Source of the DNA: Escherichia coli O127:H6 str. E2348/69
GTDB lineage: Bacteria; Pseudomonadota; Gammaproteobacteria; Enterobacterales; Enterobacteriaceae
Length of the DNA: 64,000 bases
Assembly: GCF_000026545.1 (NCBI RefSeq)
Contig: NC_011601.1
Strand: one strand, 5' to 3'
Position 1 is the first letter of the stretch. The number at the start of each line of letters is the position of its first letter. This document shows, one piece after another, positions 55,201 through 58,200 of the stretch. A program made the position numbers.

Positions 55201-58200
55201 CCAACCACCTGGATATGGAATCCATCGAGTCGCTGAACATGGCGCTGGAACTGTATCAGGGCACGCTGATCTTTGTTTCTCACGACCGTGAGTTTGTAAG
55301 CTCCCTGGCGACCCGTATTCTGGAAATCACCCCGGAACGCGTGATCGACTTTAGCGGTAATTACGAAGATTACCTGCGTAGTAAAGGGATCGAGTAAGTT
55401 ATTATCAGTAGCCCTGATATGGTCAGGGCTACTGAAACTGATGACAAACGCAAGATTGCCTGGTGCGCTACGCTTATCAGGCCTGGTAGTGTATCGCAAT
55501 ATATTGAATTTTCATGATTTTGTATGCCGAATAAGGCGGTTACGCCGTATCCGGCATAATGACATGCACTTTCTCAATAAACTGAATTGGCGATAATCAA
55601 AGATTAAACGGCGGTTTATTTTCCAGCACCGCCTGAATCACATTCAGCGCGCCTTCATGATTATTATCATCGGTAGCGTAACGGGCGATTTGTTTAATGT
55701 TTTCCGCAGCATTGCTCATCGCAAAGGAATAACGCGCCATTTTCAGCATCTCCGCATCGTTACCGCTGTCGCCAATCGCTACCACATTTTGCGGTGACAG
55801 ATCCCAGCGTTTCAGTAACCGCGAAATACCGTTTGCTTTATGTAGACCGGGAATAATCAAGTCGATAAAGCCAAAACCACTGGTGACGGGTTTCATAATG
55901 CCATCCAGCGCTATGTGCAGTTTGTCGATCACTAACGGGATTTGTTCATCCGGCAGGTTGAGCGAAAACTTGAACAGTACGTCGTCAATCTCCTGATAAT
56001 CTTTTACAGGTTTCAGGCGATGGTAGTGTTTTGCCATCAGTGCGACGAATGCTTCGGGGGCATTTTCGCTGACATATGCACTTTGCAGACCGCAGGCGAC
56101 AAAATTGAGTTGCTTATCTTTTAGCAACTCGCCAATAACAATCCGCGATTCATGTCGGGTCAGTTCGCCGTGGAACAACTGCTTGCCATGTTCGTAAACC
56201 AGTGCGCCGTTTTCCGCGACAAAAGAGATCTCATCCTTTAGCTCAGGAAAGAACGAAATAAGCTGGTAATACTGATTACCGCTGGCGACAACGAACTCAA
56301 TGCCGCGCTTTTTCAGTTCCTGATATTGCGCCATAAAACGTGGTTGGTTGTACGTTTTGGCGTCGTTAAGAAAAGTACCGTCCATGTCTGTGACGATAAC
56401 TTTTACGCTCATAGGTGTGCTCCTGGCTCGAAAATGAAACCGTAACAGTGTAATAACAATGTGACGCAGAGCACAAATTATATTTCGAATGAAAGTGAGA
56501 ACAGGATTGATGATGTGAATGATTTAGCCCGGCGATGTCTCCGCCGGGCTGAGGGATTACAGCATGTGTTCGGTACGGGCGATGATATCGTCTTGTGCGT
56601 CTGGAGAGAGTGCGGTGAAGAAGGCTGAATAACCCGCTACGCGTACCACCAGATCGCGGTACTGATTCGGATGTTTTTTCGCTTCCAGCAGCGTTTCGCG
56701 GGAAACGATGTTGTACTGAATATGCCAGCCTTTATGCACCTCAAAGAAGGTACGTAGCAGGATCATCAGTTTCTGCTTGTCAGATTCGTTCTCCAGCGTT
56801 GCCGGATTCAGTTTCTGGTTGAGCAACACGCCGCCGAGAATCGCTGCCGTAGGCAGTTTACCCACCGAGCCAATGACCGCCGTTGGGCCGAGATGGTCAG
56901 TACCGGAGGCCGGACTAGCGCCTTCTGCCAGCGGGGTATGTGCTTTACGTCCGTCCGGCGTTGCCATAGTCTGCGCGCCAAACGGTACGTTAGCGGAGAT
57001 AGACGACGTACCCGCGTAATAGTTGCCGCCAACCGGACCACGACCGTAGCGTGGGTTATGGTACTGTTTCAGTTCGTCGATATAGGTCTGATAAGCGCGA
57101 GCCAGCAGCGTATCGACGGTATCATCGTCGTTGCCGTACTTCGGCGCACCGTTAATCAGCCGCTGACGCAGTTGCTCATGAGTCAGGCCATCGAAGTCAT
57201 CCGCCAGTGCGGCAGCCAGCTGTTGCTGACCAATCGCGCCCTGTTCAAATACCAGTTTCTTCACTGCCGCCAGGCTGTTGCCGAGGTTGGCAATGCCAAC
57301 CTGCAGGCCAGAAACCCAGTCATATTTCGCGCCGCCTTGCTTGATACTTTTCGCTCGCTCAATGCAGTCATCCACCAGCGCCGAGCAGAGAATATCGTGC
57401 ACGTTCTCTTCCAGCATGGTGTCGACGACATATTCGATTTCGATTGATTTACGGGTGTAGTAACGGATTTGCGTGTCCCACGCGTCCATCACTTCATCGA
57501 AGTTGTTGAAGTTACCCGCTGACAACGCTTTTTCTTGTGGCAGGAACACTTTGCCGCTGGTGGCATCACGACCGCCTTCCAGCGCCGCCAGCATCACGCG
57601 GGCGAAGTTGATAAAGCTCATCCCGGTGCAGCGATAGCCCCATTTGCCACCGACGGCGGTTTCGATACAGCCAATCGCCGCGTAGTCGTAAGCGTCCTGC
57701 GGTTCAATACCGAGTTTAATAAATTCCGGGATGACGATTTCGTCGTTGTTGAACGCGGGCATCCCGAAGCCGCAGCGAATCACCTGCACACAGGCGTCGA
57801 GGAAATCGTTGCTCAATCCCGCATGGTAACGCACGCTGAGGTTAGGCTGAGTCGAACGCAGGCGACCGCAGGATTCGAGGATCGCGTAAGAGAGTGGATT
57901 CACCGCGTCCATTGGTTGACCATCAACCAGATTTTGCCCGCCAATGGTGACGTTCTGATACAGCGGACTTCCCGCAGAGGCTTTTGAGTGTGAGCCGGAG
58001 CGGATTTTGTTCACTTCCAGCAATTTCAACCAGCAGCTATGCAACATCTCGATGGCGTGTTCGCGATCCAGTGTCTGGTTCAGTTCAACGTCACGGCGAT
58101 AGTACGGGTAGAGATACTGGTCCATACGACCAAACGATACCGAGTGTCCGTTGGATTCGATCTGCAAAATCAACTGGATGAAGTAGCACAGTTGCAGCGC

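What the first reader, a model, noticed from the sequence alone, without database searches (positions are those of the whole stretch)
55398..55596. ybiU is absent; a REP cluster occupies the ybiT-ybiV interval
In K-12 as I recall it, a ~421-codon gene ybiU lies between ybiT and ybiV. Here the two genes are separated by only 199 bp, consisting of a BIME/RIP-like REP pair. This is a presence/absence polymorphism with REP elements at the scar.
Basis: partly seen in the sequence, partly recalled or inferred. Interest (0 to 1): 0.3.

Follow-up and report, generated by a model that had tools for sequence, protein, structure and literature searches.

The report
Old ybiU-lacking allele beside a BIME-1 repeat
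This E. coli strain (E2348/69, 100% match) lacks the gene ybiU between ybiT and ybiV, as about one in five sequenced E. coli genomes and E. albertii do; it is an ordinary, old gene-loss allele, and the repeat next to it was already there, so it is not a scar of the loss.

Summary
ybiT (53805-55397, +) and ybiV (55597-56412, -) converge across 199 bp, and K-12 has the 1266-bp gene ybiU in that gap. The gap holds a ybiT 3' hairpin, one BIME-1 element (REP, conserved L linker, inverted REP) and a 39-bp spacer.

K-12 carries the same hairpin and BIME-1 at the same site, between ybiT and ybiU. The REPs therefore lie next to the missing segment rather than marking its junction. No REP lies on the ybiV side in K-12.

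The window is 100% identical to E. coli E2348/69. Its junction occurs as a single chromosomal copy in 1041-1052 of 5426 complete E. coli genomes (about 19%). Named carriers are classic B2 strains.

The E. albertii type strain has the same junction, about as diverged as the flanking genes. Citrobacter species keep ybiT-ybiU-ybiV-ybiW, and their ybiU is as close to K-12 ybiU as the flanking genes are. ybiU presence is therefore ancestral, and the window carries an old loss allele.

The locus has several alleles: a GH31-MFS-LacI+ybiU form, the K-12 form, a divergent ybiU, a DUF6960 cassette and the empty form. This is ordinary and of low interest.

The parts
53805..55397 (+). ybiT, an ABC-F family ATPase of 530 aa; left core-gene flank of the polymorphic interval
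   Evidence: ORF list. NCBIfam NF011646 equivalog at 1067 bits against a cutoff of 762. RefSeq annotation of the identical E2348/69 stretch.
55405..55435 (.). Perfect 13-bp stem with a 5-nt loop (TCAGTAGCCCTGA-TATGG-TCAGGGCTACTGA), 8 nt after the ybiT stop codon; probable ybiT 3'-end hairpin
   Evidence: Sequence and MFE fold. K-12 has a hairpin at the same place with a different stem sequence (GTCACCCCGA/TCGGGGTGAC), so the pairing is kept while the sequence changes. The stem is identical in MLI121 and 95% identical in E. albertii. No T-run follows, so the simple terminator scan does not call it.
55439..55457 (+). Conserved left-flank motif of the BIME unit (TGATGACAAACGCAAGATT)
   Evidence: It aligns with the second BIME copy in the window (29.84 kb) and with the K-12 and E. 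albertii copies.
55458..55489 (+). REP unit 1 (GCCTGGTGCGCTACGCTTATCAGGCCTGGTAG), the inverted-orientation member of the pair
   Evidence: Alignment to the K-12 and 29.9-kb copies. It forms a stem-loop in the fold.
55490..55521 (.). L linker of the BIME-1, containing ATTCAATATATTG (55497-55509, minus strand), a 12/13 match to the IHF consensus WATCAANNNNTTR
   Evidence: The 29-nt linker pattern has 2 matches in the window against 0 expected. The same 12/13 IHF-like match sits at the same place in both copies. The L linker and its IHF site are described in PMC3333891.
55522..55557 (+). REP unit 2 (GTATGCCGAATAAGGCGGTTACGCCGTATCCGGCAT)
   Evidence: REP half-site matches at 55526-55538 (+) and 55543-55555 (-), each with 1 mismatch. 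Strong stem-loop on both strands. Sub-threshold Rfam match to the REP-derived naRNA4 (27.5 bits against a gathering score of 59.5).
55558..55596 (.). 39-bp spacer specific to the ybiU-less haplotype, between the BIME and the ybiV stop codon
   Evidence: BLAST finds no counterpart in K-12, ybiU2 or DUF6960 alleles. It is 89% identical in E. albertii. It resembles the K-12 sequence after the BIME in the same register, but not significantly (p about 0.13).
55597..55626 (-). Haplotype-specific 3' tail of ybiV, encoding ...LENKPPFNL* instead of the ...LDNTSPFNS* of K-12 and Citrobacter
   Evidence: By my count from the alignment, about 67% nt identity to K-12 over these 30 nt, against 98.9% for the rest of ybiV. 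Identity to E. albertii is 96.7%. C-terminal comparison.
55597..56412 (-). ybiV, a Cof-type HAD sugar phosphatase of 271 aa, intact; right core-gene flank
   Evidence: ORF list. TIGR00099 at 219.8 bits. RefSeq annotation of E2348/69. 98% aa identity to K-12 YbiV.

Best explanation
The window is E. coli E2348/69 and carries an old ybiU-null haplotype of the ybiT-ybiV interval. The ancestral enterobacterial arrangement had ybiU at this site: ybiT, then GH31-MFS-LacI in many genera, then ybiU-ybiV-ybiW. In the null haplotype a segment of about 1.5 kb is missing. That segment held the ybiU coding sequence, its upstream region and ybiV's own intrinsic terminator. ybiV now ends 39 bp from the BIME-1 that already lay downstream of ybiT. 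The haplotype is common in E. coli (about 19% of complete genomes). By my knowledge of the named carriers it is the phylogroup B2 allele. The E. albertii type strain shares it with species-level divergence, so the loss is roughly as old as that species split. It has since been kept, or moved, by homologous recombination in the flanking core genes. The ybiT hairpin and the BIME-1 are now the only strong secondary structures between two convergent genes. I infer, without direct evidence, that they serve both genes as 3'-end barriers and mRNA stabilisers and as an IHF-binding site, as described for BIME-1/RIB elements generally. The loss, its age and the orthology of the BIME are shown. The role of the BIME at the 3' ends and the exact breakpoints are inferred.
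For: The window is 100% identical to E2348/69. K-12 has ybiU between ybiT and ybiV. A 701-bp junction query is covered at 80% or more in 1052 of 5426 genomes. The haplotype-specific 96-bp junction is found in 1041 genomes, one chromosomal copy each; these include ATCC 11775, ATCC 25922, PMV-1, APEC O1:K1:H7, BEN2908 and O25b:H4-ST131. Counts of genomes with a ybiU-like gene (4329), with the null junction (1045) and with the DUF6960 cassette (41) sum to 5415 of 5426, as expected for mutually exclusive alleles. Four Citrobacter species have ybiT-ybiU-ybiV-ybiW. Their ybiU is 82-84% nt identical to K-12 ybiU. The flanks compared with C. youngae are in the same range: ldtB 82%, ybiT 86%, ybiV 80%, ybiW 85%. 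K-12 and Citrobacter share the YbiV tail DNTSPFN and a conserved terminator, ACCGGAGC...GCTCCGGTTTTC; the window has neither. E. albertii has the same hairpin, BIME, spacer and ybiV tail at 89-97% identity, against 90-94% in the flanks. The BIME and hairpin are collinear with those of K-12, GPEC1356 and MLI121. About 25 loci from other Enterobacteriaceae have GH31-MFS-LacI directly downstream of ybiT, and about a dozen of them reach ybiU before the fetched DNA ends. 576 E. coli genomes keep that long form.
Against: The breakpoints cannot be placed to the base. Between the ybiT stop codon and the last ~30 nt of ybiV, the null and ybiU+ haplotypes are only 67-78% identical while the flanking genes are 98-99% identical. 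That is more divergence than a simple deletion within E. coli predicts. The spacer's similarity to the K-12 sequence after the BIME is not significant. The evidence therefore cannot separate inheritance from a polymorphic ancestor from ancient inter-species transfer. The B2 assignment rests on my knowledge of the named strains, not on a phylogeny computed here. No expression, 3'-end or IHF-binding data were available.
Confidence: 0.8

Rival explanations
1. The empty site is ancestral and ybiU was inserted in the lineages leading to K-12. The window would then show the original state, not a loss.
For: The null haplotype is also present in E. albertii, an outgroup to E. coli. Two very different ybiU alleles, about 77% nt identical, coexist in E. 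coli, as independent acquisitions might produce.
Against: Citrobacter species have ybiU at the same position and in the same orientation. Their ybiU is 82-84% identical to K-12 ybiU, the same range as the flanking core genes. K-12 and Citrobacter share the ybiV tail and the ybiV terminator that the window lacks. About a dozen other Enterobacteriaceae loci show ybiU downstream of a GH31-MFS-LacI cassette next to ybiT. ybiU has no mobile-element features beside it.
Confidence: 0.06
2. The deletion was caused by the REP elements, through recombination between REP/BIME copies or through RAYT/TnpA(REP) activity, and the REP pair is the resulting junction.
For: REP/BIMEs are known targets of recombination and of insertion sequences (PMC3333891 and PMC1525189). 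The BIME lies within 40 bp of the missing segment.
Against: An intact, collinear BIME-1 lies at the same site in ybiU+ strains. The K-12 ybiU-ybiV intergenic region has no REP. The only REP half-site found in the 6.7-kb K-12 locus lies in the BIME next to ybiT. A 39-bp non-REP spacer separates the BIME from ybiV in the window. The right-hand boundary lies inside ybiV coding sequence.
Confidence: 0.05
3. The null haplotype reached the E. coli B2 ancestor from an E. albertii-like donor, or went the other way, by homologous recombination across ybiT and ybiV. It would then not be inherited vertically from a polymorphic common ancestor.
For: The junction is shared between two species that are not sisters. 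A 450-bp tract at 58650-59100, spanning the 5' end of ybiW and the 3' end of ybiY, has 4 differences from E. albertii. The same tract has 10-13 differences from two other E. coli and 22 from a probable cryptic-clade genome, so alleles have crossed the species line in this neighbourhood. The divergence profile across the region is mosaic.
Against: Divergence between the window and E. albertii in the haplotype-specific block (89-97%) is no lower than in the flanks (90-94%). Any transfer would therefore be about as old as the species split. Only one E. albertii genome was examined.
Confidence: 0.25
4. The short interval is an assembly or annotation artefact of this one record.
For: None.
Against: The identical arrangement is found in 1041-1052 independent complete genomes and in the E. 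albertii type strain.
Confidence: 0

Closest known systems
BIME-1 / RIB / RIP elements of E. coli (a REP pair with an L linker that binds IHF)
   Same: Two REP units in inverse orientation, separated by a conserved linker of about 32 bp that carries a 12/13 IHF-consensus match. The element is single, not tandem. [quoted passage not shown] It is 80-85% identical to another copy 25 kb away in the same window.
   Different: Both REPs are slightly degenerate: GTAT replaces GTAG, and the usual CTAC end of REP 1 reads TGGTAG. IHF binding was not tested. Here the element lies between two convergent genes because ybiU is missing.
K-12 ybiT-ybiU-ybiV locus (b0820-b0822)
   Same: The flanking genes are the same: ybiT is 98.1% identical and ybiV, outside its last 30 nt, is 98.9% identical. 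The hairpin and BIME-1 sit at the same position after ybiT.
   Different: The roughly 1.5 kb containing ybiU, its upstream region and the ybiV terminator is absent. The hairpin/BIME block is only 78% identical, and the last ~30 nt of ybiV about 67% by my count from the alignment. YbiV ends in ENKPPFNL instead of DNTSPFNS.
E. albertii NBRC 107761 ybiT-ybiV junction
   Same: It has the same ybiU-less architecture, element for element: hairpin, BIME-1, spacer and ybiV tail, at 89-97% identity.
   Different: Ordinary species-level substitutions only; the YbiV tail reads ENKPPFTL.
Lineage-specific loss of non-essential y-genes in the E. coli pan-genome
   Same: A single accessory gene of unknown function is present in about 80% and absent in about 19% of genomes, with the core genes on either side conserved. 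The gene is YbiU, Pfam PF07350 Gig2-like/DUF1479, with structures 2dbi, 2dbn and 2csg.
   Different: The null allele is unusually old, being shared with another species. The site also carries at least five alternative contents.

Membership tests
BIME-1 (RIB/RIP) repeat element | Two REP units in inverse orientation | tested here: met
   REP half-sites at 55526-55538 (+) and 55543-55555 (-), with REP 1 at 55458-55489. Both form stem-loops.
BIME-1 (RIB/RIP) repeat element | A long, well-conserved L linker between the two REPs, as defined in PMC3333891 | tested here: met
   The 29-nt linker pattern matches at 55496-55524 and, with 2 mismatches, at 29895-29923; 0 matches are expected by chance. 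It aligns with the K-12 and E. albertii copies. Definition.
BIME-1 (RIB/RIP) repeat element | Occurs as a single unit at its locus, not as tandem copies | tested here: met
   The 199-bp interval holds only one REP pair.
BIME-1 (RIB/RIP) repeat element | The L linker carries an IHF-binding site | tested here: inconclusive
   ATTCAATATATTG matches the consensus at 12 of 13 positions and sits at the same place in both window copies. The consensus with one mismatch is not enriched in the window (64 matches against 52.6 expected). Binding cannot be tested here.
BIME-1 (RIB/RIP) repeat element | Member of a dispersed, extragenic, multi-copy family | tested here: met
   A second copy lies at about 29838-29975 in the window. 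REP half-sites number 15 against 2.0 expected. A genome-wide count was not obtained because megablast is too insensitive for this.
ybiU presence/absence polymorphism (loss allele) | ybiU lies between ybiT and ybiV in K-12 | tested here: met
   MC1000 and MG1655 annotations, b0820-b0821-b0822.
ybiU presence/absence polymorphism (loss allele) | No ybiU coding remnant at the site or elsewhere in the window | tested here: met
   The gap is 199 bp with no BLAST similarity to ybiU. tblastn of both YbiU alleles against the window gives a best E of 1.3. Allele counts across genomes are consistent with mutual exclusivity.
ybiU presence/absence polymorphism (loss allele) | Presence is the ancestral state (outgroup synteny) | tested here: met
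   Four Citrobacter species have ybiT-ybiU-ybiV-ybiW, with ybiU as diverged as the flanks. About a dozen other Enterobacteriaceae loci show ybiU downstream of ybiT. Salmonella, E. fergusonii and E. marmotae loci were not retrieved.
REP-mediated deletion scar | The REP/BIME is created by, or sits exactly at, the junction and is absent from the intact allele | tested here: not met
   An orthologous BIME-1 is present in the ybiU+ strains K-12, GPEC1356 and MLI121.
REP-mediated deletion scar | REP copies flank the deleted segment on both sides in the intact allele | tested here: not met
   The K-12 ybiU-ybiV intergenic region has only a terminator hairpin and no REP.

The most novel reading that the evidence does not exclude
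The ybiU-null haplotype may be a true trans-species polymorphism. In that case it has persisted, or been exchanged repeatedly, between E. albertii and E. coli B2 alongside ybiU+ haplotypes since about the time the species split. That would imply selection for and against the Gig2-like/DUF1479 protein YbiU in different Escherichia lifestyles. The ybiT-ybiV interval would then act as a small recombination hotspot with at least five alternative contents.
Probability: 0.15. Interest if true: 0.3.

Novelty: already known. Interest (0 to 1): 0.12.

Why it matters
It matters little. The stretch comes from a published, annotated reference genome (E2348/69), where the ybiT-ybiV adjacency is already visible, and BIME-1 elements are a long-described repeat family. 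Three points are useful. First, the analysis corrects the 'REP scar' reading. Second, the ybiU-null junction is a clean single-copy marker of one large E. coli lineage, B2 by my knowledge of the named strains. Third, it is a small documented case of a gene-loss haplotype shared across an Escherichia species boundary, at a locus that shows stepwise reduction from a GH31-MFS-LacI-ybiU form to ybiU alone to nothing. YbiU has solved structures but no known function. Its natural absence from about 19% of E. coli genomes shows that it is dispensable in those lineages.

Tried and rejected
1. Exact breakpoints. The 39-bp spacer aligns in register with the K-12 and MLI121 sequence after the BIME, but the score is not significant (p about 0.13 against shuffles). 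I give breakpoint ranges only.

2. Genome-wide count of BIME-1 copies with megablast. The 28-bp seed recovers only the orthologous copy, so I relied on repeats within the window.

3. IHF consensus as evidence. With one mismatch allowed it is not enriched in the window (64 against 52.6 expected), so I treat it as a positional match only.

4. Rfam. Only sub-threshold matches to the REP-derived naRNA4 and to ES036. No distinct RNA gene is indicated.

5. Simple promoter and terminator scans. Nothing was found in 55300-55700.

6. A donor for the window-type ybiV tail. Superficieibacter ybiV shares the 'PPF' codons and matches at 89-91% over 35-47 nt. Its tail reads DNTPPFNE, which is intermediate, so I judged this to be variation in a weakly constrained tail rather than evidence of a donor.

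7. Strain HH97. Its 2.6-kb unannotated ybiT-ybiV interval is G/C-run junk with no sensible ORFs. I treated it as a probable assembly problem and did not pursue it.

8. Literature. Searches for ybiU, DUF1479 and ybiT+ybiV found nothing about this polymorphism.

9. PADLOC scan of the alternative DUF6960 cassette: no hits.

It returned only two Escherichia loci and none from Salmonella.
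Full report
**What is in the window**

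Reading 55200-55800 and listing ORFs shows two convergent genes. A 530-aa ORF lies at 53805-55397 (+) and a 271-aa ORF at 55597-56412 (-). They are separated by 55398-55596, which is 199 bp. NCBIfam identifies the first as the ABC-F ATPase YbiT (NF011646, 1067 bits) and the second as a Cof-type HAD phosphatase. The neighbours are LdtB and a glycyl-radical enzyme, YbiW. The stretch is 100% identical to E. coli E2348/69, whose RefSeq annotation shows ldtB, ybiT, ybiV and ybiW with nothing between ybiT and ybiV.

**The recalled K-12 arrangement is correct**

In K-12 MC1000 and in MG1655 (b0820, b0821, b0822), a 1266-bp minus-strand gene, ybiU, lies between ybiT and ybiV. ybiU is annotated as a DUF1479 domain-containing protein. 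It is separated from ybiT by 240 bp and from ybiV by 151 bp. YbiU matches Pfam PF07350 (Gig2-like, formerly DUF1479). Structures exist (2dbi and 2dbn, and 2csg for a close homologue), but I found no assigned function. tblastn finds no YbiU-like sequence anywhere in the 64-kb window.

**Anatomy of the 199 bp**

- Eight nucleotides after the ybiT stop codon there is a perfect 13-bp hairpin (55405-55435).
- A conserved motif follows (55439-55457).
- REP unit 1 is at 55458-55489.
- A linker of about 32 bp is at 55490-55521.
- REP unit 2, inverted, is at 55522-55557.
- A 39-bp spacer is at 55558-55596.

REP half-sites occur 15 times in the window against 2.0 expected. The 29-nt linker pattern occurs twice against 0 expected, with the second copy at about 29.9 kb. 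The two window copies and the K-12 and E. albertii copies align over the whole unit, with a mean column identity of 85%.

This matches the published definition of BIME-1: a single REP/iREP pair separated by a long, well-conserved L linker that often carries an IHF site (PMC3333891). A 12/13 match to the IHF consensus sits at the same place in both copies. The consensus alone is not statistically informative. Both strands fold far better than shuffled sequence (z = -6.2 and -7.3). Rfam gives only sub-threshold matches to REP-derived sRNA families. The 'BIME/RIP-like REP pair' description is correct.

**The REPs are not a scar**

Aligning the window with K-12 shows that K-12 has a hairpin and a BIME-1 at the same position, directly after ybiT and before ybiU. 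They are collinear with the window element at about 78% identity. The same holds for two strains carrying a divergent ybiU, GPEC1356 and MLI121.

The hairpin stem differs between haplotypes but keeps its pairing: AGTAGCCCTGA/TCAGGGCTACT against GTCACCCCGA/TCGGGGTGAC. This suggests the structure is under constraint.

BLAST similarity to K-12 stops at 55557 and resumes at about 55604; near-identity returns about 25-30 nt into ybiV. In K-12 the intervening roughly 1.5 kb holds ybiU, its upstream region and an intrinsic terminator for ybiV (ACCGGAGCCGTGCGCTCCGGTTTTCCC). The K-12 ybiU-ybiV spacer contains no REP. The BIME is therefore an older neighbour of the missing segment. Nothing points to REP-REP recombination as the cause.

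The spacer 55558-55596 resembles the K-12 sequence after the BIME in the same register. The similarity is not significant (p about 0.13), so the left breakpoint can only be placed within 55558-55596.

**How common is the allele**

Among 5426 complete E. coli genomes:

- A 701-bp junction query is covered contiguously in 1052.
- A 96-bp haplotype-specific junction (55545-55640) is found in 1041 at 80% coverage or more, always once and always on the chromosome. Listed carriers include ATCC 11775, ATCC 25922, PMV-1, an APEC O1:K1:H7 strain, BEN2908, O25b:H4-ST131 and Nissle 1917. From my own knowledge these are phylogroup B2 strains, as is E2348/69. No phylogeny was computed here.
- A ybiU-like gene is present in 4329 genomes.
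- About 4061 of these carry the K-12 type. Of those, 576 also carry a GH31 glycosidase, MFS transporter and LacI regulator between ybiT and ybiU.
- 225 carry a divergent allele, which I call ybiU2, at 95% identity or more to the GPEC1356 copy. ybiU2 is about 77% nt identical to K-12 ybiU, and it is frameshifted in MLI121.
- 36 genomes, including ATCC 8739, carry a DUF6960 gene plus a 93-aa ORF instead.

The class counts sum to 5415 of 5426, as expected for alternative alleles of one site.

**Direction of the change**

- Four Citrobacter species have ybiT-ybiU-ybiV-ybiW.
- Their ybiU is 82-84% nt identical to K-12 ybiU. The flanking genes compared with C. youngae fall in the same range: ldtB 82%, ybiT 86%, ybiV 80%, ybiW 85%.
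- K-12 and Citrobacter share the YbiV C-terminus (...DNTSPFN) and the terminator downstream of ybiV. The window has ...ENKPPFNL and no terminator.
- About 25 loci from other genera have GH31-MFS-LacI directly downstream of ybiT. These include Enterobacter, Leclercia, Raoultella, Kluyvera, Kosakonia, Buttiauxella, Cedecea and Siccibacter. About a dozen of them reach ybiU before the fetched DNA ends.

The simplest reading is stepwise reduction: a long form, then ybiU alone (K-12), then nothing (the window). ybiU presence is ancestral and the window carries a loss allele.

**Age of the allele**

The E. albertii type strain also lacks ybiU. It has the same junction, element for element:

| Element | Identity to the window |
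|---|---|
| Hairpin | 95% |
| Hairpin + BIME block | 89% |
| Spacer | 89% |
| ybiV tail | 97% |
| Flanking genes | 90-94% |

The null haplotype is therefore about as old as the E. coli-E. albertii split and is not a recent import. Within E. coli, the block private to each haplotype is far more diverged than the adjoining genes. The hairpin/BIME block is 78% identical and the last 30 nt of ybiV about 67% (my count from the alignment), against 98-99% for the neighbouring genes. Within-species recombination has homogenised the flanks but not the region linked to the indel.

I cannot decide between a polymorphism inherited from the common ancestor and an ancient inter-species exchange. One observation favours some gene flow. 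At 58650-59100 the window has 4 differences from E. albertii, 10-13 from two other E. coli and 22 from a probable cryptic-clade genome.

**How it most likely works now**

This part is inferred. With ybiU and the ybiV terminator gone, the ybiT hairpin and the BIME-1 stem-loops are the only strong structures between two convergent genes. By analogy with the described roles of REP/BIME (PMC3333891), they probably act for both transcripts. Those roles are transcription termination or attenuation, protection of mRNA 3' ends, IHF binding and topological insulation. No expression data were available to test this.

**Verdict**

The feature is an ordinary, lineage-associated loss of a non-essential gene, visible in a published reference genome, next to a well-known repeat family. 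The modest extras are its age (it is shared with E. albertii) and the multi-allelic nature of the site. Interest is 0.12.

Noticed in passing
window 29838-29975: A second BIME-1 copy with the same flank motif, REP, L linker and inverted REP. It is about 80-85% identical to the copy at 55439-55557 and has the same IHF-like ATTCAATATATTG in its linker (29896-29908).
   Followed up: partly
window 58650-59100 (5' end of ybiW / 3' end of ybiY): A 450-bp tract with only 4 differences from the E. albertii type strain. The same tract has 10-13 differences from two other E. coli and 22 from a probable cryptic-clade genome, and neighbouring bins differ from E. albertii at 7-15 per 150 bp. This looks like a short inter-species recombination tract.
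   Followed up: partly
L004 2239-3498 (GPEC1356); L005 4080-5340 (MLI121, frameshifted); L008 5750-7009: A second, very divergent ybiU allele ('ybiU2', 419 aa) at the same site in at least 225 E. coli genomes. It is about 75-77% nt identical to K-12 ybiU and to Citrobacter ybiU alike, which is more distant than the Escherichia-Citrobacter flanks. It therefore looks like a xenologous replacement. It comes with its own ybiV tail and terminator.
   Followed up: partly
L006 3950-9027 (AR_0372): A GH31 glycosidase, MFS transporter and LacI regulator lie between ybiT and ybiU in 576 E. coli genomes. The same cassette lies next to ybiT in about 25 loci from other Enterobacteriaceae genera. In AR_0372 the lacI 3' end overlaps ybiU by 34 bp, and ybiT has an altered C-terminus (...GIDG* instead of ...GIE*).
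   Followed up: partly
L003 2546-3261 (strain 214-4; also ATCC 8739): In 36 genomes the interval holds a DUF6960 protein (129 aa) and a 93-aa ORF with no Pfam family, in AT-rich DNA. Neither has a PADLOC hit. The ybiV tail in this allele resembles the null-haplotype tail. A few genomes (C4, HYM1) have a DUF4261 gene here instead.
   Followed up: partly
L007 1690-4218 (strain HH97): A 2.6-kb unannotated stretch between ybiT and ybiV, full of G-run and C-run sequence with no sensible ORFs. It splits the BIME between REP 1 and the L linker. It is probably an assembly problem rather than biology.
   Followed up: no
L008 (record titled 'E. coli SCPM-O-B-8794'): Its flanks are only 94-95.6% identical to the window, so it is probably a cryptic Escherichia clade rather than E. 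coli proper. It has a ybiU2-type gene only 77 bp after ybiT and no BIME.
   Followed up: no
window 56500-58600 (ybiV-ybiW spacer and ybiW): ybiW and the ybiV-ybiW spacer are unusually diverged between E2348/69 and other E. coli (92.5-98% in 300-bp windows, mosaic), compared with 98-99.7% for ldtB, ybiT and ybiV.
   Followed up: no
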